Below are positions 1-9,525 of a stretch of 13,467 bases of DNA, in pieces. The position numbers and the translations under genes are program-made. The notes below the pieces were generated by a model, which saw nothing but the letters and a program-made list of their open reading frames with translations, was not told the origin of the DNA and searched no databases. The first letter of the stretch is position 1, and every line of letters starts with the position of its first letter. This DNA is from Candidatus Undinarchaeota archaeon. GTDB taxonomy: Archaea; SpSt-1190. The stretch spans positions 1 through 13,467 of the forward strand of contig CAYVAH010000023.1 in assembly GCA_964449215.1 (NCBI GenBank). The letters are read 5' to 3'.

Positions 1-1800
1 ACCGTCTCCCCCATCCCCTCCCTCTGCCTGAAGAGTCCCCGAGAGACTGATGTTCCTGGCCACCAAGTGTATGTTCCCCCCGCCTCCACCCCCGCCTCCG
101 TTACCACATTCAGTTAGTTTGCATGATCCATCAGTACCGTCCTCTCCATTGGCATAGATGTTCCCTGACACGTTGATCAATTCAAGCGCGTTGAAGGTTA
201 TTTTCCCACCGCCGTCGCCGCCGTTGCCACTGAAGAGCGCTGTTGATTTGCCGCCGCCACCGCTGTAATTGCCACCACAAAAAGTAACAGAAGCACCACC
301 ACCCGCATAATAACCACCTCTTGTTCCACCGCCATTGCCGCCAGCTATACCCAGACCATTACCACCACAACCCCCAACAGTGGCTCCGTTGGGATATTGG
401 TCCACCGTCAGCGTCACGCCGGAATTCACCGTAAGGGACTTGAAATAATATGTGACGTTGTCGTTGAGGGTCTGCGAGGCATTCACCACGCAGTCACAGG
501 AGGTGTATGAGCAAATGAACCCGGTGCAGGGATTCCCCTGTGTCGGGCATGTCCCCGAGGAGCCCGCGCCACACCACAGGTTGGCGGCGTCTATCCAGCG
601 GAGCTTCGTGTATTTTTCCTGTCCTGCCGCCAGGGGACCGGCATTTATCTCCAGACGGACAGGGGTGTTGTTCTGGTAGGGTGTGGAGTTCAGGACCAGC
701 CTGTAGGTGAGTCCGGGACTCCAGTCAAGGCGAAGCCACTGGTGCGTCCAGGCATCATATATCTTGTAAAATGGCTCGTCAAGACTGGTGAAATTCAGGC
801 TCAGGGACTCGTTGAGCCAGTAGGTGGTGCCATTCACCAGAATGGTGTCATTCTCCTCGTGCATTCCTATCCGGATATTGTTGACGTGCCAGGCAAATCC
901 CAGGTCATTCGGTATGTCTTCACTTCCGAGGTTCCTGACATATGGCATCACCGTGAGGTTGACATCATCAACCTTCAGGTGATATCTAAGCCCCAGGCGG
1001 ACTGGCCTGCCCTTCACAACCACATCCCTGTAGCCAGTGATATTCACATAGGTGAGGTTGTCGGTGTCGTGGCTCCAGCTGAAGGGCAGTTCGTCGTTGC
1101 ACTCATAGTGCCAGTCCCTCAGGTAGCCGGTGACGTTGAAGTTGTCCATACCGCAGCCTTCGTCGGTCTCGTTGGCATTGGAGTAGATGAGGACGCAGGT
1201 GTAATTGGAAATATAGGGAGTGACGTCAATCACCTTCCAGTGGTATTGCGCGTCGGTGCCGTTGCTGGAGTTGAATATGTTCGTCCAGTTCCCACCAAAA
1301 GGGCGGACATCCATAGCACAATATTCCCCCAGGTCCAGCCCGAAGCGCCTGCCGTAGAAGGAAACCCACACCCGGTCATAACCGGAGATGTCTCCGCAAA
1401 CCATGAGCTCGTTGTTGCCGGCGCTGTCAGTAATGCGCAGGGAAGTGCCATCGTAGGCATAGGTGCCATCAATCCCCCGAATCATCCCGGAGCCGGGATA
1501 GCAGGAGTCCCAGCCACTGCTGTAGCTGCAATCCTCCGTGGTGGACCACGACTCGAAGTCGTCCTGGAACACCGATTCATTGGCACCAGAGCTCCTCCAC
1601 CCCGCACAGAACACATTGTGCGTCCAGTACTGGTTGTAGTGGTTGGTGAACTGAATGCCCGAGGAGGCGTTGAAATAATACTCGTAGTGGCGGTTCCAGA
1701 TTTTCCACACCTTCCCGCCATCAAGAGACTCGAAGCCAATGGGTGATGCAAAAGCCAACGAAAAGGTGAAAAGGAGCAGCAGGCCCATCAGCCGTGCCAC
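1..1800 (-). CDS. Large secreted/surface glycoprotein with a Gly-rich C-terminal region (3' end beyond the window edge)
   Basis: Manual translation of the minus strand from GTG at 1800 (alternative ATG at 1788) is open to base 1, giving 600 codons: MARLMGLLLLFTFSLAFA-SPIGFESLDGGKVWKIWN...GNGGGGGGGGNIHLVARNISLSGTLQAEGGDGGDG. It has a Sec-type signal peptide ending in AFA, about 22 N-X-S/T sequons, many Cys, and GG-rich repeats from about 390 to 1. It is absent from the ORF track because no stop lies in the window. Confidence 0.9.
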   Translation of the reverse strand, partial: MARLMGLLLLFTFSLAFASPIGFESLDGGKVWKIWNRHYEYYFNASSGIQFTNHYNQYWTHNVFCAGWRSSGANESVFQDDFESWSTTEDCSYSSGWDSCYPGSGMIRGIDGTYAYDGTSLRITDSAGNNELMVCGDISGYDRVWVSFYGRRFGLDLGEYCAMDVRPFGGNWTNIFNSSNGTDAQYHWKVIDVTPYISNYTCVLIYSNANETDEGCGMDNFNVTGYLRDWHYECNDELPFSWSHDTDNLTYVNITGYRDVVVKGRPVRLGLRYHLKVDDVNLTVMPYVRNLGSEDIPNDLGFAWHVNNIRIGMHEENDTILVNGTTYWLNESLSLNFTSLDEPFYKIYDAWTHQWLRLDWSPGLTYRLVLNSTPYQNNTPVRLEINAGPLAAGQEKYTKLRWIDAANLWCGAGSSGTCPTQGNPCTGFICSYTSCDCVVNASQTLNDNVTYYFKSLTVNSGVTLTVDQYPNGATVGGCGGNGLGIAGGNGGGTRGGYYAGGGASVTFCGGNYSGGGGKSTALFSGNGGDGGGKITFNALELINVSGNIYANGEDGTDGSCKLTECGNGGGGGGGGNIHLVARNISLSGTLQAEGGDGGDG

Positions 1801-1802
1801 AA
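1779..1802 (-). repeat. Left copy of a perfect 24-bp inverted repeat (partner at 5475-5498)
   Basis: 1779-1802 GCAGGCCCATCAGCCGTGCCACAA is the exact reverse complement of 5475-5498 TTGTGGCACGGCTGATGGGCCTGC. Confidence 0.95.
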
Positions 1803-1820
1803 ATAAACAAAACTGGAAGT

Positions 1821-1828
1821 TATTTATA
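1821..1828. promoter_or_regulatory. Putative bidirectional archaeal TATA box
   Basis: TATTTATA on + (TATAAATA on -) lies in the 45-bp gap between the divergent starts at 1800 and 1846/1849, about 20 nt from each. This fits leaderless transcripts. Confidence 0.55.
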
Positions 1829-1845
1829 CTTTAGTCAGTCTTTCT

Positions 1846-2346
1846 GTGGTGGGGAAACTCAGCAGCGTTTTCAGGGACCAGATGTTCGTCGCCCTGCTCT
1901 TGTTTCTGCTGTTTTCCTTTCTCGGTGCCGTGTTCTCTGGAAGCCTGAAGCTGAACGCCATAAACTTTGGAGAAGCAACCATACACGTGCCCTTGCCATC
2001 GCTTGATTACACGGTGAGCGGTGGCTGGGGGGAGTGGATAGGTATCCTCGCATCCTCGGCGACCCTGGCGGCTTTTCTCAGCACCTATCTTGGAAAGAGG
2101 CTGTTCATCACATACAAGGTTATCAATTACCCGGCGGACCACCTCAAGGTGCTCAGATCACTGAAAGGGCACCCGAAAACCCCCACAGAAGTTGCGGCGG
2201 AGTTTGATATCCCACCTTCTGTGGCGCAGAGAATAATGGAAGACCTTGCAAGGTCGGGTATGCTGGAAAAGATAGGGAGTGGTGAGAGGATGCTCTATTA
2301 CTTTCCATTCGACAAGGAACTCGCCAAAAGAAGACTAACTTCCTGA
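1846..2346 (+). CDS. Membrane protein with two TM segments and a C-terminal winged helix-turn-helix
   Basis: Hydrophobic segments MFVALLLFLLFSFLGAVF and WIGILASSATLAAFLSTYL are followed by KVLRSLKGHPKTPTEVAAEFDIPPSVAQRIMEDLARSGMLEK...RMLYYF, a TrmB/ArsR-like wHTH pattern. The start codon (1846, 1849 or 1882) is uncertain. Confidence 0.75.
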   Translation: MVGKLSSVFRDQMFVALLLFLLFSFLGAVFSGSLKLNAINFGEATIHVPLPSLDYTVSGGWGEWIGILASSATLAAFLSTYLGKRLFITYKVINYPADHLKVLRSLKGHPKTPTEVAAEFDIPPSVAQRIMEDLARSGMLEKIGSGERMLYYFPFDKELAKRRLTS

Positions 2347-3723
2347 CCCGAAACCATAGACCACTTCTCCGGACCGGGCGGAGCGACCCCTGCCATCGAC
2401 CTTCAGGTATGTCCTCTTACCGTGGTCATCGACCCCTGCCAGCAACCAGCCACGGGTAGGCATTCTGGAACAGCCTTCCCGGAACAGGCAGTATTCTTCA
2501 AAACTCAGTGGCACACCTTCCTCCAGCTCTTCACCGAATCCCCAGCTGCTCACGACACGCCCTGTTCTTTCAGTCACTTCAAACGGAACCGCCAGGGCAC
2601 CCCCACCACTGCCGTAACCAATCACAAGAATCCTGTCACCTGGAGAGTAGCGCCCCCGCTCAAAACCCTTTTCCAGGGAGCTCACGAGAGCCACAAAAAC
2701 GGAAGCTGTGTAGGAATTCCCGACCCGGGAAGGGTAATCCAGGGAATCAGCGAGCCTCTCACGGTCTTGCTCGCATATTCGCCCATGCCTCGCTGCAAAC
2801 TCCTTCAGCCTGCCCTTTACCTTGCCATAGACTTCCCCGGCATCATCCTCAAACGACCTCACGGAGCGGACCAGCCGCTCCATCTCCATGCTTTCCCCGG
2901 AGTCCATCGCACGAAGATAGACCAGCGCATACTCCGCCATTTTCGGGTAGGGCACATGCAACACCACCCCCTTAAAGCTGTCCAGACTGACCGCCTCGAA
3001 GGGCTGCATACGCGATTTCAGGTCCTTGTAGGCCTCGCCAACATTTTTCAGGTATGAAAGAAAGGAGAACTTCCCATCAACCACGGGGTATTTTGAGGAC
3101 ACGAACTTATCCTTCACAGTCACCACCGGCTTGGAAAAGTCATATGTGTGGGAGCTTGAATAACCGAAAAGGTCATTTTCAACAACGAACTCCGGAACCC
3201 TCAGCAGGTCACCTTCTCCCACGGCTATGGCCGCGGCACCCGCACCAGCGGTGCCCTCCGCGGATGGGGAATCATACTCGGCGATATCCGCCGCGACCAC
3301 AACAGCCCGTTTCCCCAGATAGTCCACGACCCTCGACAGGGCACCGAGACAGGCAAACTTCTCCTCCGAGACCTTGACATTATATGTCCGCTCATCCTCC
3401 TTGATGCGGTCACCACCGGAAAAAAGCAGGGAGAGTAGCGGCGACACGTCAGGCTTGGAGTCGTCCCCATCCCGGGTTTCGTGTCCCATTGAAAGATGCC
3501 TCACCTCCCGCATGTATTCGGGTCCAAGGGCGTCCCGGAGCTTTTCTCCAGCTTCCAGAGCCAGGCAGCTCTTGTCCTGGAACCCGCTGTTTGGCACCCT
3601 TCTGCTGAGGACCCCAAGACCTTTTTCCAGAAGTTCCGGGGGCAGGCCAGCACCTTTTGCAAACTCTCCGGAAGTTATATAAGTATCAGGAACGGAAAGT
3701 CTAATATCATCGACGCCTGCCAT
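2335..3723 (-). CDS. mvaS: Hydroxymethylglutaryl-CoA synthase (MvaS-like long form)
   Basis: Motifs: GHET..D.SK (catalytic Glu), EEKFACLGA (catalytic Cys), DIAEY....EGTAGAGA, YDFSKP, YPVVDGKFS...YL, LHVPYPKM (catalytic His), VGNSYTAS and GYGSG. Confidence 0.88.
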   Translation of the reverse strand: MAGVDDIRLSVPDTYITSGEFAKGAGLPPELLEKGLGVLSRRVPNSGFQDKSCLALEAGEKLRDALGPEYMREVRHLSMGHETRDGDDSKPDVSPLLSLLFSGGDRIKEDERTYNVKVSEEKFACLGALSRVVDYLGKRAVVVAADIAEYDSPSAEGTAGAGAAAIAVGEGDLLRVPEFVVENDLFGYSSSHTYDFSKPVVTVKDKFVSSKYPVVDGKFSFLSYLKNVGEAYKDLKSRMQPFEAVSLDSFKGVVLHVPYPKMAEYALVYLRAMDSGESMEMERLVRSVRSFEDDAGEVYGKVKGRLKEFAARHGRICEQDRERLADSLDYPSRVGNSYTASVFVALVSSLEKGFERGRYSPGDRILVIGYGSGGGALAVPFEVTERTGRVVSSWGFGEELEEGVPLSFEEYCLFREGCSRMPTRGWLLAGVDDHGKRTYLKVDGRGRSARSGEVVYGFGSGS

Positions 3724-3744
3724 TCTATGAAGTCTTGCCGGGGG

Positions 3745-3785
3745 TATATATAGTATTCGATTTTTGACTATTTATATAACGTCAA
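3745..3785. promoter_or_regulatory. Divergent TATA boxes for mvaS (3745-3752) and xth (3771-3778), the latter flanked by TTGAC/GTCAA
   Basis: TATATATA lies about 22 nt upstream of the mvaS ATG. TTTATATA sits inside TTGAC-N12-GTCAA (3764-3785). Confidence 0.5.
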
Positions 3786-3853
3786 TTGTCTAAAGTATTC
3801 ACTTCCAGGGGACAATGGCAGAAAGAATATTAATGGCCCTGACAGGAGCTTGG

Positions 3854-4591
3854 GTGAAGATTCTTTCCTGGAACGTCAACGGCTTCCGGGCCTGCGTGAA
3901 AAAGGGCTTTTATGAGTTCCTGCGCAAAGAAAACCCCGATGTGCTCTGCATACAGGAAACGAAACAGCAAGAAGTTCCCACACTCCCGGCGGAGTTCAAC
4001 TACCGTGTGGTGTGGAACCCCGCAAAGCGCCCCGGTTACGCTGGAACAGCAGTCTTCACCAGGCTCACGCCAAAAAACGTAAAAAGGGGGATGGGCATTG
4101 AGAAATTCGACTCAGAGGGGCGGGTTATAACACTCGACCTCGGGAACTTTACGCTCGTAAACGCTTATTTTCCGCATTCACGACGGGGACTGGAACGGCT
4201 GGATTTCAAGCTGGAGTTCAACCGCGCCTTCGCCCGGTATGTGAAGCCAATGGGGAGGGTGGTAATCTGCGGGGACTTTAACGTTGCCCACAGGGAGATA
4301 GACATAGCGCGACCGAAGGACAATGAAAAGAACGCCGGCTTCACCCCCGAAGAAAGAAAATGGATGGACAGCTTCCTGGCGAAAGGATACGTGGACACAT
4401 TCAGGCATCTCCACCCCGATGAAGTGAAATACACCTGGTGGAGCTACCGGTTCAACGCCCGGGCGAGGAATATCGGGTGGAGGGTCGATTATGTGGTGGT
4501 CTCCAGCAACTTGATAAAGCACGTAAAGGAGGCGTTTGTGATGGACGAAGTAATGGGCTCAGACCACGCACCGGTGGGGGTGACACTCTGA
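3854..4591 (+). CDS. xth: Exodeoxyribonuclease III / AP endonuclease
   Basis: Motifs: KILSWNVNG, PDVLCIQETK, GYAGTA, D.EGR, N.YFP, CGDFNVAH, YTWWSYR..AR..N.GWR.DY and SDHAPV. GTG at 3854 is preferred over 3815 because the family starts at MKI.SWN and GGAG lies at 3845-3848. Confidence 0.95.
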   Translation: MKILSWNVNGFRACVKKGFYEFLRKENPDVLCIQETKQQEVPTLPAEFNYRVVWNPAKRPGYAGTAVFTRLTPKNVKRGMGIEKFDSEGRVITLDLGNFTLVNAYFPHSRRGLERLDFKLEFNRAFARYVKPMGRVVICGDFNVAHREIDIARPKDNEKNAGFTPEERKWMDSFLAKGYVDTFRHLHPDEVKYTWWSYRFNARARNIGWRVDYVVVSSNLIKHVKEAFVMDEVMGSDHAPVGVTL

Positions 4592-4971
4592 AACTCCTGT
4601 ACCTGCTATCACTCCTGCTGGTCTTCGCAGCCCTCCTGGCTGTGAGGGAACCGGAAAAGCTGGAGCTGAGGCTGATTACCGTTCTGGCGGATAAACAGGT
4701 ATATCACTCCGCAGAAACCATGAACCTGACCCTTGTCGCGTGGGCAAATCAGGACACCAACGCAACGGTGAGAATCAGCGGCGTTCCCAGGATGACCACC
4801 ACGCGTGAAGTGAACCTGACCAAAGGCACCAACCAGTTCTATGTGGCACAGAGGCTCCCCCGCTGTAACGTGTGCGGCGGAATCCGGCCTGGAAACTATT
4901 CGGTGCTCTGTCAGCTCTGGCACGGCAGCACCGAGCTGAATAAAACCATCGTTGTGGAAATCCGGCAGTGA
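4588..4971 (+). CDS. Small exported/membrane-anchored Ig-like glycoprotein with CxxC
   Basis: Signal or anchor segment KLLYLLSLLLVFAALLAV, an ADKQVY..AET beta-sandwich start motif, five sequons (NLT, NAT, NLT, NYS, NKT) and CNVC. The probable start is CTG at 4588, overlapping the xth stop (CTGA), downstream of GGGGGTGA (4576-4583). Confidence 0.7.
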   Translation: MKLLYLLSLLLVFAALLAVREPEKLELRLITVLADKQVYHSAETMNLTLVAWANQDTNATVRISGVPRMTTTREVNLTKGTNQFYVAQRLPRCNVCGGIRPGNYSVLCQLWHGSTELNKTIVVEIRQ

Positions 4972-5008
4972 AAGGCAAACAATATATAGACTCAAAACCA
5001 AGGTGAGC

Positions 5009-5560
5009 ATGGTAATTGGAATAGTTCTCGGTGCCATCGCGGTGGTCTTCCTGCTCTATTTTGTGCTGGCATACAACGGGTTCGTTGTGATGAAGAACAG
5101 CATGGACCGGGCCGCCTCAAACATAGACGTGATGCTCAAGCAAAGGCACGATGAAATAGGGAAGCTCGTCGATACCGTGAAGGGATATATGAAGCACGAG
5201 AAGGGGTTGCTGGAAAACATAACCAGGCTCCGCTCCCAGTTCGCCAAAGCCAAGGATACAGGTGAACGGCTGAGGATTGACGCGGAGATGAACAGGCATG
5301 TGCTCAACCTCTTCGCCGTGGCGGAGAATTACCCGAAGCTCCGGGCAAGTGAGAACTTCATGCACCTGCAGGGGCGGATAACTGCCCTGGAGAATGAGAT
5401 AGCGGACCGCCGGGAGGAGTACAACAGCACGGTATTTGAATACAACAACAAGGTTCAGCGGATACCCTCAGCAATTGTGGCACGGCTGATGGGCCTGCAG
5501 ACAAGAGAGATGTTCAAGGCTTCCGAAGGCGACAGAAAAGATGTTAAAGTTTCTTTCTAG
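5009..5560 (+). CDS. lemA: LemA family membrane protein
   Basis: N-terminal TM segment, then YNGFV...A.SNIDV.LKQRHD.I..LV..VKGYMKHEK, AVAENYPKLRASENF..LQ..I..LENEIA.RRE.YN..V..YN. ATG at 5009 with AGGTGA at 5001-5006 and AATATATA at 4981-4988. Confidence 0.95.
   Translation: MVIGIVLGAIAVVFLLYFVLAYNGFVVMKNSMDRAASNIDVMLKQRHDEIGKLVDTVKGYMKHEKGLLENITRLRSQFAKAKDTGERLRIDAEMNRHVLNLFAVAENYPKLRASENFMHLQGRITALENEIADRREEYNSTVFEYNNKVQRIPSAIVARLMGLQTREMFKASEGDRKDVKVSF
5475..5498 (+). repeat. Right copy of the perfect 24-bp inverted repeat, inside the 3' end of lemA
   Basis: TTGTGGCACGGCTGATGGGCCTGC encodes V-A-R-L-M-G-L in lemA, the same frame and peptide as the start of the surface protein. Confidence 0.95.
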
Positions 5561-5564
5561 GCGC

Positions 5565-6251
5565 ATGGGGGCGAAATCGGCGCTGGGAATTCAGCTCGCC
5601 ATTATACTGGGGGCCGTGCAGCTGTACCCCCGATATCCTTTTGTCCTGATCGGGGGGGCACTCGCTTCCGCAGTGCTCATGTTCGTCAGCTACAGTGTCA
5701 AAAGCTTCATTGAAGCCATCCCCACTTCAAAAGTCAGATCAGTGGCCATGGGAATGGCAGAGCTGAGGGGGAAGGCTCTGGAAGCGAGAGGCACTGTGAG
5801 TGCGCCCTTCAGCAGGGTGGAGTGCCTTGCCTATGAGGCCAAGGAAGAACGGCTGCAGAAGGTCGGGAAAAACTATGCGTGGGTGACCAGCTTCCATCGC
5901 AGGAAAGATGGTTACTTTTATCTGGACGACGGCACGGGAAAGCTTCTCTGCCACACAAAAGGCGCCCAGCTCGCCGTATCCCCCTTTGTCAGGCAGCTGG
6001 GAAACGTGAGGCGCTCCGAATGGAGAATCCTGCCGGGAAAGACTTACTACGTGATTGGAAAGGTCGCGGACAACCCCTTCGTGAAGGAGGCTTCATCGCA
6101 GGAGGGCTGGAAGGACCTGATGATGACTGAAGGCGATATTTACATCATATCGGACAAAAAGGAAAAAAACCTGAGATGGTGGTATGGTGCCGCTTTTCTT
6201 TTCTCCGCCGTTTCCACCGCGGTATTCACAGCACTCGCCTTCTTAATTTGA
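5565..6251 (+). CDS. GIDE-domain membrane protein (no RING domain)
   Basis: Two N-terminal TM segments, then I..IPTSKVRS.AMG..EL.G, APFS..EC..Y, FYLDDGTG, R..EWRI.PG...YVIG and IISD..EK, followed by a C-terminal TM segment. ATG at 5565 is 4 nt after the lemA stop and is preferred over 5541. Confidence 0.75.
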   Translation: MGAKSALGIQLAIILGAVQLYPRYPFVLIGGALASAVLMFVSYSVKSFIEAIPTSKVRSVAMGMAELRGKALEARGTVSAPFSRVECLAYEAKEERLQKVGKNYAWVTSFHRRKDGYFYLDDGTGKLLCHTKGAQLAVSPFVRQLGNVRRSEWRILPGKTYYVIGKVADNPFVKEASSQEGWKDLMMTEGDIYIISDKKEKNLRWWYGAAFLFSAVSTAVFTALAFLI

Positions 6252-7095
6252 CCCTTTCTATGGCTCTCACGACCTTCTCTGCAGGCCTGGCAACCAGCTC
6301 CATCAGATTGTCAGGGGCAACCACCATTCTTCCCCCTTGGTGAATGTTCACCACCGGGCTGTCGGCATATCTGACCGTGGCCCCTGAAAATTTCCCGTCC
6401 ACCACGAGAGCCCTAACATCCCAGAATCTCGACCCCCTGAAAGGATCAACCCTTATGCGCTCCTGTATCAGCTTCACACCCTTCACAGGAGCGGGAGGCC
6501 TGTCCCCCACCATAACACCGCCACCAGCCTGACCGAAGTTCCCCTTCACCACAACTCCCCCGGGAAATTCCACGGAACAAAAAATTTCCTCCGCCATCCT
6601 GGAGCTCAGGGAAAGAAAGCTCCTTGGAGTTTCCACGTCAGTGCCATCCCGGACTATCAGGGTGGAAAGATGCTTGTCCAGGCTGATGCGAACTATGTGC
6701 TCCGGGTTTATCCTCGGGACATCAAACCTGTAGAGCTGTGAAAACCTCAGCCGGTTGAACAGAATGACGCTCGGCTCGAATCGCAACCCGCTTTCCGAAA
6801 CAAGCTTCTTGGAGTGATAGTCCTGCCTGGAAACGTCGCAAAGCTCGGCAGGGAAGAACTCCCGGAGTCTTTCCAGTCGGGGAATATCGCTCCTGTCCCT
6901 GATGGAAAACAGAACCGCAGCTTTCGGAGACCTCACCCGACGGAGCACAGCCTTCGCAAGCCTGCCCACTGGAGAATAACCGGCCGCCTCCAGGAGATTC
7001 ATCGCATGAGCACCCGGAGACGCATTCACCTCAAGGAAATAAGGCTCCCCCTTGCTTATCAGGAAGTCCACACCGGCAATCACGAATTCCCTCAT
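6226..7095 (-). CDS. Circularly permuted RimK-like ATP-grasp ligase
   Basis: The N-terminus carries the normally C-terminal motif AGVDFL...EPYFLEVNASPG. It is followed by DK..S, VVVKGNFGQAGGGV, LIQERI, DVRALVVDG and VVNIHQGG. ATG at 7095 overlaps the upstream TGA (ATGA). Confidence 0.85.
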   Translation of the reverse strand: MREFVIAGVDFLISKGEPYFLEVNASPGAHAMNLLEAAGYSPVGRLAKAVLRRVRSPKAAVLFSIRDRSDIPRLERLREFFPAELCDVSRQDYHSKKLVSESGLRFEPSVILFNRLRFSQLYRFDVPRINPEHIVRISLDKHLSTLIVRDGTDVETPRSFLSLSSRMAEEIFCSVEFPGGVVVKGNFGQAGGGVMVGDRPPAPVKGVKLIQERIRVDPFRGSRFWDVRALVVDGKFSGATVRYADSPVVNIHQGGRMVVAPDNLMELVARPAEKVVRAIERVKLRRRVL

Positions 7096-7772
7096 GCTAT
7101 CCACTCCAGAGCCAGTTCCACCAGACACCTCGCGACTTCTTCATACCGGGGGTCCACCCCATCCCGGAATCCCCGCTCGGCAAACTCCACCAGAGCGGCT
7201 TTTCTGCCCCTGTGGTGCGTGTTGAGTATGAACTCACTCTCCCCCGTGAGCCTGACCCTGCTCACCAGCACCTCCAGGGAGACACCCCTGGCAGCAAGCT
7301 TTTCAAGCAGCTGCCTTTTGAACTCAAGCGCCCTTTCGGTCCCGCCTATGTACCGGCGGTCGGCACCAAAACCCAGTCTCACATCCACATCCCTGTTACT
7401 CATTCTGTGGAAGTCGAGTATGAACCTTGGATCGAGTCGTTCGATGGTTTCATGAAATTTATTTAGCAGCCCCGAATAGCTTTTGTTCTTGTGACCTTCC
7501 AGAACCACCCTCTTCCCGGAAACAGCTATCCGGAAGCTCGCTCCCTTCCCGAGGAGCGCGGGGTCCCTGGCAAAGTCGGCTTCCATCCTCGGCACACGGG
7601 AAATCAGGCATGCCCCGCCGATATGCTTGGCAGCCAGTCGAGCCAGATAGGCTGTGCCGGGCTCCCCGACCCTCACCCGGTGACCATCCACCTCCACCAT
7701 ACTGACACCCTCATGAGGGGCAACCACCAGAATGGGCGAATCACCGAAAACCTTGTGCTCCACGAGAGCCAT
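7092..7772 (-). CDS. Zn-dependent amidohydrolase, N-formylglutamate amidohydrolase / poly-gamma-glutamate hydrolase-like
   Basis: SPILVVAPHEG, GEPGT, R..ADFAR (cf. R...D.NR), FH..I and ILDFH give a His/Glu/His metal-ligand pattern of the Zn-exopeptidase-like fold. Confidence 0.7.
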   Translation of the reverse strand: MALVEHKVFGDSPILVVAPHEGVSMVEVDGHRVRVGEPGTAYLARLAAKHIGGACLISRVPRMEADFARDPALLGKGASFRIAVSGKRVVLEGHKNKSYSGLLNKFHETIERLDPRFILDFHRMSNRDVDVRLGFGADRRYIGGTERALEFKRQLLEKLAARGVSLEVLVSRVRLTGESEFILNTHHRGRKAALVEFAERGFRDGVDPRYEEVARCLVELALEWIA

Positions 7773-8636
7773 TCAACCACCCGCCAGAAACTTCACAATC
7801 TTACCCGCAACATCCTTACCCGTGGCTTCTTCAAGCCCCTTGAACTGCGCATTCACATTGGTTTCAATAACCACAGGACCCTCGGGACCGGGCATTATGT
7901 CCACACCACATACGCGCATTCCCATGGCCTTGGCCGCCCGGACAGCCAGCCTGCTTTCCTCCTTCGTGAGCTTGTATGGCCTGCCTTCACCGCCCATCCC
8001 TATATTTGCCCGGCGTTCTCCCCTGCTGGCCACACGCTTCATACTCGCCACCACCTTCCCACCCACAATATAAGCCCGTATGTCTTCGCTCCCGGGCTGA
8101 ACAAACTCCTCAACAAATATGGGCTCCTTGAATCTCTCCAGGGCATCGATTATGCTCACAGCCGACTGCCTGGAGTCTGCAAACATCACACCCACACCCA
8201 TGGAGCCGTGAAGGAGCTTGAGCACAGCCGGGTAGTTCATCTCACCAAGAACCTTCTCAAGCACTGCCCTCCTGAGCGAAAGATGCGTTTTCGGCACGGG
8301 AACCCCCTCCTCCCGGAGCAGCACGAGTGTGAGGAACTTGTTGTGTGAGGCTACCAGTGACCAAGGCTCGATTGGCAGGGGCTTGCCGGCCTCCTTCAAG
8401 AAATAGAGGAGCGCTGTGCCGAATGTGCGGTAGGACCGGGGTATCCTGGGCAGGACCACGTCATAGTCCAGCAGGTCCTTGTTCTTGTAGTGGAGCCGGA
8501 AATCCTCACCGTTCAGCTCCATGACCACCTGTGGGATGGGAAAATAGCTGACGGTGTCGAATAGCTTTGTGGCTTCTTCAAGCAGCCTTATTTCTTCATG
8601 CTTCCTATTTAGAGGACCGAGTATAGCCAATTTCAT
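7773..8636 (-). CDS. rimK: RimK family alpha-L-glutamate ligase (ATP-grasp), intact
   Basis: D.V.PRI, NK...L.L...GVPVPKT, YPAVLK...GSMGVGV, VEEFV, DIRAYIVGG, R.ANIGMGG, GVDI and IETN. GAGGTG ribosome-binding site upstream. The symbol denotes the family; the substrate is unknown. Confidence 0.9.
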   Translation of the reverse strand: MKLAILGPLNRKHEEIRLLEEATKLFDTVSYFPIPQVVMELNGEDFRLHYKNKDLLDYDVVLPRIPRSYRTFGTALLYFLKEAGKPLPIEPWSLVASHNKFLTLVLLREEGVPVPKTHLSLRRAVLEKVLGEMNYPAVLKLLHGSMGVGVMFADSRQSAVSIIDALERFKEPIFVEEFVQPGSEDIRAYIVGGKVVASMKRVASRGERRANIGMGGEGRPYKLTKEESRLAVRAAKAMGMRVCGVDIMPGPEGPVVIETNVNAQFKGLEEATGKDVAGKIVKFLAGG

Positions 8637-9525
8637 CGCAGATCCACCTCACTATGTTTTGCAATGTCTTCCCGAAACCCGCCACAGCATTTTCCACCAT
8701 TGCTATGGGGTCAATGGCAGCAATCCTGTGCGTGGCTTCCTCCGCCATTATCGAAGCCAGGTTCTTCCCGAGGACCTTCTTGAACAGGTCAAATCTCGGC
8801 ACGAACTTCACGTTGGAAAGGTAGAATCGCTTGCCTATTTTGACAAAAATTATTGAACAGTAATCGGCACCCAGCGTCCTTCGAACATCCTGGGCTATTG
8901 AAGCCAGTTTCGGGTCCACCCTCACAGGCAAGCGCTTCTTTCCGTGGCGGGAGTAGCCCACAACCTCCCTCTCACTGACAAAGACCACCCGGACCTCCGC
9001 ATCCTTGACGGGCTTCTGGACAGACACCATATGGCCCGCCGAGAAAAGAGAAAGCACGTTGCGCAGGGTCTCCTCATTGCTCACATAAACTCGCTTGTCC
9101 TGCGGGGTCGTCAGGATCACAGGAAGCTTGAAGTTTTCCTTGATGAAATCGGCAGCCACGTTCTGCGACACCGAGACGGTCCGGCGTATTGGAACACCAC
9201 CGAGGGCGAGTTTGTTCAGAAGGACCGGCTTGTTCCAGAAATATGCGAGAGTTTCACTGGGGACTGAAACCCGCGTTTTTCTCTCAAGAATTCTGGCGAG
9301 GGTGTAGTAAAACTCCTTTTCCGGACCCTCCGGAAGAAGCAACACGTAGTCAAAATTGGACAAATCGAACCTCCCGGAGGTGGCGGAGACCAGCTCGCCT
9401 GCTGTGAGCTTTATACTCCAGGGAGTGAAGAACACCACGGTGGAGAACCTCTTTGAAAATTCCGGCATCAGCACTTCCCTGACGCCTTCGGAGCCGACTA
9501 TCGCGACCCTGCCCCTGCTCACCAC
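8605..9525 (-). CDS. Degenerate RimK-like ATP-grasp protein (probable pseudoenzyme)
   Basis: Collinear with RimK (DLSNFDYV, NK...L..L..GGVPIRRT, LPVIL, VQKPV, EVRV, LGADYC..., FYL..V...P.F), but the catalytic motifs are replaced. Full-length ORF with no frameshift. Confidence 0.75.
   Translation of the reverse strand: MVSRGRVAIVGSEGVREVLMPEFSKRFSTVVFFTPWSIKLTAGELVSATSGRFDLSNFDYVLLLPEGPEKEFYYTLARILERKTRVSVPSETLAYFWNKPVLLNKLALGGVPIRRTVSVSQNVAADFIKENFKLPVILTTPQDKRVYVSNEETLRNVLSLFSAGHMVSVQKPVKDAEVRVVFVSEREVVGYSRHGKKRLPVRVDPKLASIAQDVRRTLGADYCSIIFVKIGKRFYLSNVKFVPRFDLFKKVLGKNLASIMAEEATHRIAAIDPIAMVENAVAGFGKTLQNIVRWICDEIGYTRSSK

What the first reader, a model, noticed from the sequence alone, without database searches (positions are those of the whole stretch)
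1779..5498. Perfect 24-bp inverted repeat: candidate intragenic inverton fusing LemA in frame to the surface protein
Seen: TTGTGGCACGGCTGATGGGCCTGC occurs on + at 5475-5498 (lemA codons ~157-163) and on - at 1802-1779 (start codon and signal-peptide n-region of the surface gene). Both copies read VARLMGL in the same frame, and the flanks are unrelated. A rough chance expectation of (13467^2)/4^24 is below 1e-6. Inverting the ~3.7 kb between the copies would give (i) LemA(1-163)-LLLFTFSLAFA-surface protein, in frame and under the lemA promoter, with the signal h-region as a plausible second TM; and (ii) the surface-gene promoter driving a 27-aa LemA tail and the GIDE gene. The internal genes would stay intact. 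Inference: a phase-variation switch, or the scar of a template-switch/conversion event that built the signal peptide. No recombinase gene lies in the window.
Basis: partly seen in the sequence, partly recalled or inferred. Interest (0 to 1): 0.8.

Follow-up and report, generated by a model that had tools for sequence, protein, structure and literature searches.

The report
Static lemA-derived repeat, not a switch
A 24-base stretch from inside the lemA gene recurs exactly, on the opposite strand, at the start of a surface-protein gene 3.7 kb away in a small vent archaeon; only one orientation is seen and no flipping enzyme was found, so it is likely a fixed scar of a one-time DNA copying event (or a coincidence) rather than an on/off switch.

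Summary
The perfect 24-bp inverted repeat (1779-1802 / 5475-5498) is real. It has only two copies in the genome and is present in a second strain (99.2% identical).

The switch reading is not supported. All 6 listed bridging contigs from 4 low-depth runs, and the second strain, show one orientation with no joint. That orientation matches another genus. No tyrosine, serine or DEDD recombinase was found in this 95%-complete genome. The closest surface-protein homolog (71%) has an unrelated signal peptide, and the flip would cut LemA's conserved C-terminus. Rare flipping (below roughly 20-30%) was not testable.

VARLMGL is native to LemA, so any copying ran lemA to surface gene. Measured chance is 2.7e-6 per window, about 0.02 per genome. 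A shared frame is normal for chance matches (70 of 111), so coincidence stays a real rival at scan scale.

Best reading: fixed one-off copy that supplied the signal-peptide start (0.58); coincidence 0.25; programmed inversion 0.08. No earlier scan note covered this locus or lemA look-alikes. In passing, relative G001 carries ten scattered repeat-spacer-repeat units, a kind the scan noted in other archaea.

The parts
1779..1802 (-). Left arm: two T, then GTG start and codons 2-7 (M-A-R-L-M-G-L) plus one base of the surface-gene signal peptide; likely the derived copy
   Evidence: direction inferred
5475..5498 (+). Right arm: lemA codons 156 (2nd base) to 164 (1st base); native LemA C-terminal motif
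   Evidence: VARLMGL in 3 of 120 homologs, the three closest; A158 in 116 of 120
1..1800 (-). Secreted surface-protein gene, cut by the contig edge; no Pfam family; predicted signal peptide ending A-F-A; closest homolog P0150 is 1004 aa, 71% identical over residues 1-420
1821..1828 (-). TATA-like box (TATAAATA) 20 nt before the GTG; suggests a leaderless start at the edge of the repeat (inferred)
   Evidence: read
1846..2346 (+). Membrane-anchored HTH protein, divergent from the surface gene, inside the segment between the arms
2335..3723 (-). HMG-CoA synthase-like gene, inside the segment
3815..4591 (+). Exonuclease III family gene, inside the segment
4588..4971 (+). Small unassigned ORF (start uncertain), not found in the G007 block
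5009..5560 (+). lemA (183 aa, PF04011) with its own TATA-like box at 4981-4988; intact
5565..6251 (+). Gene downstream of lemA, weak GIDE similarity, syntenic in G007

Best explanation
The repeat is real and is seen in one orientation only; it is likely a fixed scar of a single, non-reciprocal copying event that would have pasted about 15-24 bases of lemA over the start of the surface-protein gene. Shown: both copies are exact in two strains; the lemA copy is the older, native motif; the closest surface homolog has a different signal peptide; gene order between the arms matches another genus. Inferred: a nascent strand at the surface-gene start switched to the opposite strand 3.7 kb away and came back, primed by short matches that a signal-peptide gene would already carry (TTGTG at the start, CTGC at the leucine run). 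The product survived because it supplied a GTG start, an arginine and the right frame in a region that tolerates change. A less likely route to the same scar is an off-target CRISPR-type spacer later trimmed. Either way the element would have no switching function today.
For: Direction: VARLMGL occurs in the three closest of 120 LemA homologs, and neighbours carry VARIMGL. None of 67 surface homologs has ARLMG, and P0150 (71%) has an unrelated signal peptide. Excess over chance: it is the longest isolated gene-to-gene match in the genome, against 0.018 expected at any distance and 2.1e-4 for a local inverted one. Position: it covers a start codon; of 186 TATA-preceded starts only 3 have a match of 18 nt or more elsewhere, and the other two (49, 55 nt) lie in duplicated or contig-overlap sequence. 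Codons 2-7 are 72% GC, reached by 2 of 186 such starts, one being this gene. Static: 6 of 6 listed bridging contigs and L035 show one orientation with no joints; the order matches G007; no recombinase found. Short self-derived copies do occur in this family: G001 holds 34- and 37-nt exact copies of its own genes at other sites.
Against: No ancestral allele close enough to show the replacement was found. Same frame is no support: 70 of 111 chance gene-to-gene matches of 17-22 nt are in frame, and the same 21-mer arose in 3 unrelated bacterial records, all reading VARLMGL. Codon frequencies give no sign of an imported sequence (likelihood ratio about 1.15). There is no local excess of inverted matches in this genome or in 1.42 Mb of six relatives (20 nt or more: 2 seen, 1.0 expected). 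The G001 copies carry 32-41-nt target duplications, and this one has none (1746 of 2000 shuffles score as high). Template switching in the paper I checked concerns short inverted repeats in yeast (abstract); a 3.7-kb jump in an archaeon is my extrapolation.
Confidence: 0.58

Rival explanations
1. Coincidence. A typical signal-peptide start (M-A-R-L-M-G-L-L-L) and LemA's amphipathic motif (V-A-R-L-M-G-L) converged on the same residues and common codons, and a very large scan picked out the tail of the distribution.
For: Isolated gene-to-gene matches fall off smoothly at 0.29 per base up to 22 nt. In-frame matches dominate the tail. The same 21-mer occurs in 3 unrelated bacterial records in the same frame. 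At 2.7e-6 per window of this size, a scan of some 250,000 windows (figure from the findings tool's description) expects about 0.7 such cases, more if windows are larger. Relative G006 has a 21-nt in-frame inverted match between two unrelated gene ends, though low in complexity.
Against: Only 0.018 expected per genome, and 2.1e-4 for local and inverted. Falling exactly on a start codon adds roughly another factor of 20 (my estimate). The start is unusually GC-rich.
Confidence: 0.25
2. Programmed, reversible inversion of the 3.7-kb segment. It would swap promoters, truncate LemA at residue 163 and fuse it to the surface protein.
For: Perfect arms in two strains. Both promoters lie inside the segment and point out across the arms. 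Frames are compatible, and the fusion has a second hydrophobic stretch at 156-174 (mean hydropathy 2.15). Invertible regions without a nearby recombinase are known (PMC9881135). Depth was too low to see rare flips, and the assembly is 95% complete.
Against: No joint in 4 runs; 6 of 6 listed bridging contigs and L035 are in the reference orientation. No PF00589, PF02899, PF00239, PF07508 or PF01548 match in G000, and PF00589 in only 1 of 10 family genomes. No LemA segment in 67 surface homologs. The flip removes F169 (120/120), D178 (113/120), V179 (116/120) and F183 (117/120) from LemA, and the A-F-A cleavage site would likely release the same mature protein. No matching repeat at lemA in 8 relatives' lemA loci. 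Base rate: 128 of 6372 bacterial candidates showed a variant (PMC9881135). 24 bp is far below the roughly 100 bp used by the pTN3 integrase and the 500 bp reported for Thermococcus homologous recombination (PMC5495485).
Confidence: 0.08
3. A selected shared RNA element: both mRNAs carry the 24-mer in sense, and it would be bound by a common protein or small RNA or fold into a functional hairpin.
For: Both copies are sense-strand. The 24-mer folds at -8.1 kcal/mol (12 of 200 shuffles as good).
Against: Folding in context is not significant (z -0.47 and +0.75). There is no third copy in the genome. The exact 21-mer scan returned no other lemA contig than L035.
Confidence: 0.04
4. Assembly artefact (one copy mis-assembled).
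For: The window comes from a 49-contig metagenome assembly.
Against: Each copy is bridged by contigs of three runs, and both are perfect in L035.
Confidence: 0.01

Closest known systems
Gene-altering programmed inversions / 'partial intergenic' invertons (Milman et al. 2023, PMC9881135; PhaVa paper PMC10028968; passages read)
   Same: Inverted repeats that overlap coding sequence, so a flip would swap gene ends in frame; a surface protein is involved.
   Different: No second orientation seen, no recombinase found, arms in non-homologous genes rather than homologous domains, and no conservation in relatives.
Intragenic invertons (PMC10028968, passages read)
   Same: Short repeats inside coding sequence; one archaeal case is reported there.
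   Different: Those lie entirely within one gene and were shown by reads in both orientations; here the arms are in two genes 3.7 kb apart.
Polymerase template switching / templated insertion (PMC8604942, abstract and outline; PMC5941160, search listing only)
   Same: Exact inverted copy with sharp edges that replaces several codons at once, without an adaptive cause.
   Different: The abstract describes short inverted repeats in yeast; a 3.7-kb jump onto a start codon in an archaeon is not covered by what I read, and no pre-event allele is in hand.
pTN3 integrase low-specificity inversions in Thermococcus (PMC5495485, passages read)
   Same: Vent archaea, inversions between non-att sequences.
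   Different: Needs about 100 bp of identity between paralogs and a tyrosine integrase; neither is found here.
Off-target CRISPR spacer integration, neo-CRISPR units (Nivala et al. 2018 as cited in bioRxiv 10.1101/148544, passages read; the original not read)
   Same: Places short self-derived DNA at unrelated sites; G000 has a CRISPR array and relative G001 has many such units.
   Different: The copy is 24 nt against 35-36-nt spacers in G000, there is no target duplication, and Cas1 was not found in 10 family genomes.

Membership tests
Programmed inversion (partial intergenic inverton / shufflon) | Inverted repeats flanking the segment | tested here: met
Programmed inversion (partial intergenic inverton / shufflon) | Both orientations present in reads or conspecific assemblies | tested here: not met
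   0 joints in 4 runs, 6 of 6 listed bridging contigs and L035 in the reference orientation. Contigs at depth 2-11 only, 26 records not shown; rare flips would be missed.
Programmed inversion (partial intergenic inverton / shufflon) | Site-specific recombinase nearby or in the genome | tested here: not met
   none in the window; PF00589, PF02899, PF00239, PF07508, PF01548 not found in G000, 95% complete
Programmed inversion (partial intergenic inverton / shufflon) | Repeats in homologous genes, so that alternative domains are exchanged | tested here: not met
   LemA and the surface protein are unrelated; flanks random
Programmed inversion (partial intergenic inverton / shufflon) | Arrangement conserved in relatives | tested here: inconclusive
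   absent in G007 and in P0150's N-terminus, but no DNA from a second species of the genus could be read
Intragenic inverton (PhaVa definition) | Both arms within one gene | tested here: not met
   definition
Template-switch / templated-copy scar | Exact copy with sharp edges in non-homologous context | tested here: met
Template-switch / templated-copy scar | Donor older than recipient | tested here: met
   protein level only:
Template-switch / templated-copy scar | Pre-event allele in a close relative, with microhomology at both junctions | not testable with these tools
Off-target CRISPR spacer | Spacer-length insert (35-36 nt in G000) | tested here: not met
   24 nt against 36, 35, 35
Off-target CRISPR spacer | Repeat-length target duplication on both sides | tested here: not met
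   1746 of 2000 shuffles score as high
Off-target CRISPR spacer | Cas1 in the genome or lineage | tested here: inconclusive
   0 of 10 incomplete genomes, although G000 has an array

The most novel reading that the evidence does not exclude
A DPANN-type archaeon flips this 3.7-kb segment at low frequency, with no recognisable recombinase, to trade intact LemA for a LemA-anchored surface-protein fusion. This would be a phase switch built between two unrelated genes from a freshly copied 24-bp arm, that is, an inverton caught at birth.
Probability: 0.08. Interest if true: 0.75.

Novelty: new member of a known kind. Interest (0 to 1): 0.22.

Why it matters
On the favoured reading it is a small, tidy example of a secretion signal's start being borrowed from the inside of an unrelated neighbouring gene. 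That is a route to N-terminal novelty, but a single fixed event. It is also a calibration case: a perfect, in-frame 24-bp inverted repeat between genes is weaker evidence for a switch than 4^-24 suggests. If flipping were shown, it would be an inverton in a DPANN-type archaeon without a known invertase. My searches listed no such paper, and the PhaVa survey covered only 42 archaeal datasets.

Tried and rejected
No RNA holder was listed, so expression was not tested. Exact 20-mer scan of viral contigs: 0 hits. Exact 21-mer in GTDB genomes: 1 hit, an unrelated bacterium. Reverse transcriptase PF00078 (DGR-type copying), Y1 transposase PF01797 and Cas1 PF01867 were not found in G000; RadA is present. 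The sigma-70 and terminator scan gave nothing above shuffles and does not cover archaeal promoters. Rfam found only the 5S rRNA at the window end. ESM Atlas hits for the surface domain were all under 0.9, leads only. A lineage-wide process making local inverted copies was tested and not seen; the 'far' baseline there includes tRNA and REP-like families and so overstates the expectation. A 21-nt match in G006 looked like a second case but is a low-complexity lysine tail; a 20-nt one in G007 lies in a motif shared by two large genes. The 24-mer itself is missing from the frame table, probably because my crude gene call did not span one arm whole. The loose end at 1748 in run X2 has no match in G000 at up to 7 mismatches and stays unexplained. 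An exact database look-up of the predicted fusion protein was not run. No structure or complex prediction was run, as it would not bear on flipping. No supplements were read; the candidate tables of PMC9881135 and PMC10028968 could hold comparable loci.
Full report
Observation. The arms at 1779-1802 (-) and 5475-5498 (+) are 24 nt and fully complementary. No third copy exists in the 788-kb, 49-contig assembly at up to 5 mismatches. The left arm covers two T, the GTG start and codons 2-7 of a secreted protein with no Pfam family; the right arm covers LemA codons 156-164. Between them lie a membrane-anchored HTH gene, an HMG-CoA synthase-like gene, exonuclease III, a small ORF and most of lemA. 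Family-level relatives' proteins are labelled 'Candidatus Altiarchaeota' by NCBI, so the organism is probably a small DPANN-type archaeon (inference). The three runs holding half or more of the words are vent metagenomes.

Is it real and does it flip? I laid contigs of 4 of the 11 listed runs on 601-6600. The left arm is bridged by records of X1, X2 and X3 and the right arm by records of X1, X2 and X4, all in the window's orientation. The table of joints is empty, and 26 shorter records were not shown. X1 may be the source sample. A scan of JGI metagenome contigs with the inner 21-mer returned 3 loci. One, L035, is a 99.2%-identical strain (49 mismatches in 6250), colinear with 1714-7962, with both arms perfect. 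With 48 repeat bases, 0.4 differences were expected, so perfection there says little about selection. Depth was 2-11 and contigs drop rare variants, so only a flip carried by roughly a fifth to a third of cells is excluded (my estimate).

History of the locus. G007, another genus, has 11 of the 15 window proteins in one block in the same order and relative orientation, including HMG-CoA synthase, exonuclease III, lemA and the downstream gene. The surface and HTH genes are not in that block. The window's orientation is therefore the ancestral one. VARLMGL is found in the three closest of 120 LemA homologs, with VARIMGL in neighbours, so the lemA copy is native. The surface gene was found in 1 of 9 other family genomes. 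Its closest homolog, P0150, is 71% identical but has a different signal peptide. None of 67 homologs carries ARLMG or a LemA-like segment (the searches covered 330-3000 aa). None of the inverted repeats listed for nine relatives' loci, eight of them around lemA, overlaps lemA.

Enzymes and logic. No tyrosine (PF00589, PF02899), serine (PF00239, PF07508) or DEDD (PF01548) recombinase was found in G000, which is 95% complete. PF00589 was found in 1 of 10 family genomes. RadA is present, but 24 bp is far under the lengths reported for archaeal homologous recombination or the pTN3 integrase (PMC5495485, passages). The flipped state would remove F169, D178, V179 and F183 from LemA, kept in 120, 113, 116 and 117 of 120 homologs. 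It would keep the A-F-A site, so the mature surface protein would likely be unchanged (inference). LemA topology varies across the family (10.64898/2026.10.21.759321, passages), so whether a fusion would be exported is open. In a bacterial survey, 128 of 6372 candidates with homologous loci showed a variant (PMC9881135, passages).

Chance. Isolated exact matches between called genes fall off at 0.29 per base (10347 at 13 nt, 275 at 16, 7 at 19, 1 at 22). That gives 0.018 expected at 24 nt or more per genome, 2.1e-4 for inverted matches within 15 kb, and 2.7e-6 in this window. A looser fit that includes repeat families gives 0.057 per genome. Of chance matches of 17-22 nt, 70 of 111 are in frame. 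The three unrelated bacterial records with the same 21-mer all read VARLMGL. Over some 250,000 windows about 0.7 such cases are expected at this window size. Against chance stand the position on a start codon and the GC-rich first codons (2 of 186 starts), though codon frequencies show nothing. No local excess of inverted matches exists in G000 or in 1.42 Mb from six relatives.

Can short self-copies arise in this family? In 587 kb read from G001, ten units (picked by eye from 28 listed direct-repeat pairs) have a 30-41-nt exact direct repeat around a 29-43-nt insert, with period 68-73. Two inserts are exact 34- and 37-nt copies of G001's own genes. This resembles off-target CRISPR spacer integration (10.1101/148544, passages), which the scan has noted in other archaea. 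I could not check these units against reads, and Cas1 was not found in 10 family genomes. They raise the prior for a non-chance copy. The window's copy, however, is shorter than G000's 35-36-nt spacers and has no target duplication.

Verdict. Shown: an exact, two-copy, strain-conserved repeat; one orientation; ancestral order; native donor; no recombinase found. Inferred: a single non-reciprocal copy from lemA, likely a double template switch primed by TTGTG and CTGC, kept because it gave a usable start and frame (0.58). Rivals: coincidence 0.25, programmed inversion 0.08, shared RNA element 0.04, artefact 0.01. The split between copy and coincidence rests on a prior I could not measure. It has the geometry of a gene-altering inverton but fails the tests of membership that could be run. 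Interest 0.22.

Noticed in passing
G001: L103:12182, L105:18210, L106:943, L106:19587, L109:6245, L110:1, L112:16419, L113:8413, L151:10219, L152:12111: Ten scattered units of a 30-41-nt exact direct repeat around a 29-43-nt insert (period 68-73) in unrelated sequence. Two inserts match G001's own genes exactly (37 nt at L103:8698; 34 nt ending at L103:10650, minus strand). Looks like genome-wide off-target CRISPR spacer integration in a DPANN-type archaeon, with no Cas1 found. Not checked against reads. Probably more interesting than the assigned finding.
   Followed up: partly
G001: L102:18081-18310: Intergenic array of four 37-41-nt repeats with three near-identical spacers (period 63); the spacer holds 22-24 nt identical to a gene at L103:15409.
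   Followed up: partly
G000:C19:11556 and 12540; G000:C12:2166, 2722, 3278: Inserts of 951 nt and 525 nt (the latter twice, 37% GC) flanked by exact 33- and 31-nt direct repeats that include a gene's stop codon; close to the 29-30-nt CRISPR repeat length of this genome.
   Followed up: partly
G000:C35:6167-6400: Short CRISPR-like array at a contig end (four 29-30-nt repeats, spacers 36, 35, 35 nt); no Cas1 found in the assembly.
   Followed up: partly
window 1492-1603: Run X2 has 16 differences packed into this patch of the surface gene, near the start of a region (about residues 70-227) missing from most homologs: a hypervariable or swapped segment.
   Followed up: no
window 1748: One X2 contig fits from 1748 and has about 60 unrelated letters before it, read as a different continuation after the signal-peptide h-region; no match in G000. 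Unexplained: chimera, other allele or other organism.
   Followed up: partly
window 1-100 and G000:C10:1-100: C10 overlaps the window's start by 54 nt and then differs at a few bases; it appears to carry the rest of the surface gene (about 1000 aa in all, like P0150) from another allele.
   Followed up: partly
L054:1752-1772 and 3962-3982 (G006:C10): Perfect 21-nt inverted match at the 3' ends of two unrelated genes, both ending A-K-K-K-K-stop; low complexity.
   Followed up: yes
G000 contig ends (C2, C11, C12, C19, C20, C25, C30, C36, C46): A family of palindromic, REP- or MITE-like intergenic repeats, often beside tRNA-like sequence, that breaks the assembly; similar families in G001 and G006.
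   Followed up: no
window 6226-9525: Cluster of RimK/ATP-grasp-like genes next to a 2-oxoacid:ferredoxin oxidoreductase pair; most of the block is conserved in G007.
   Followed up: no
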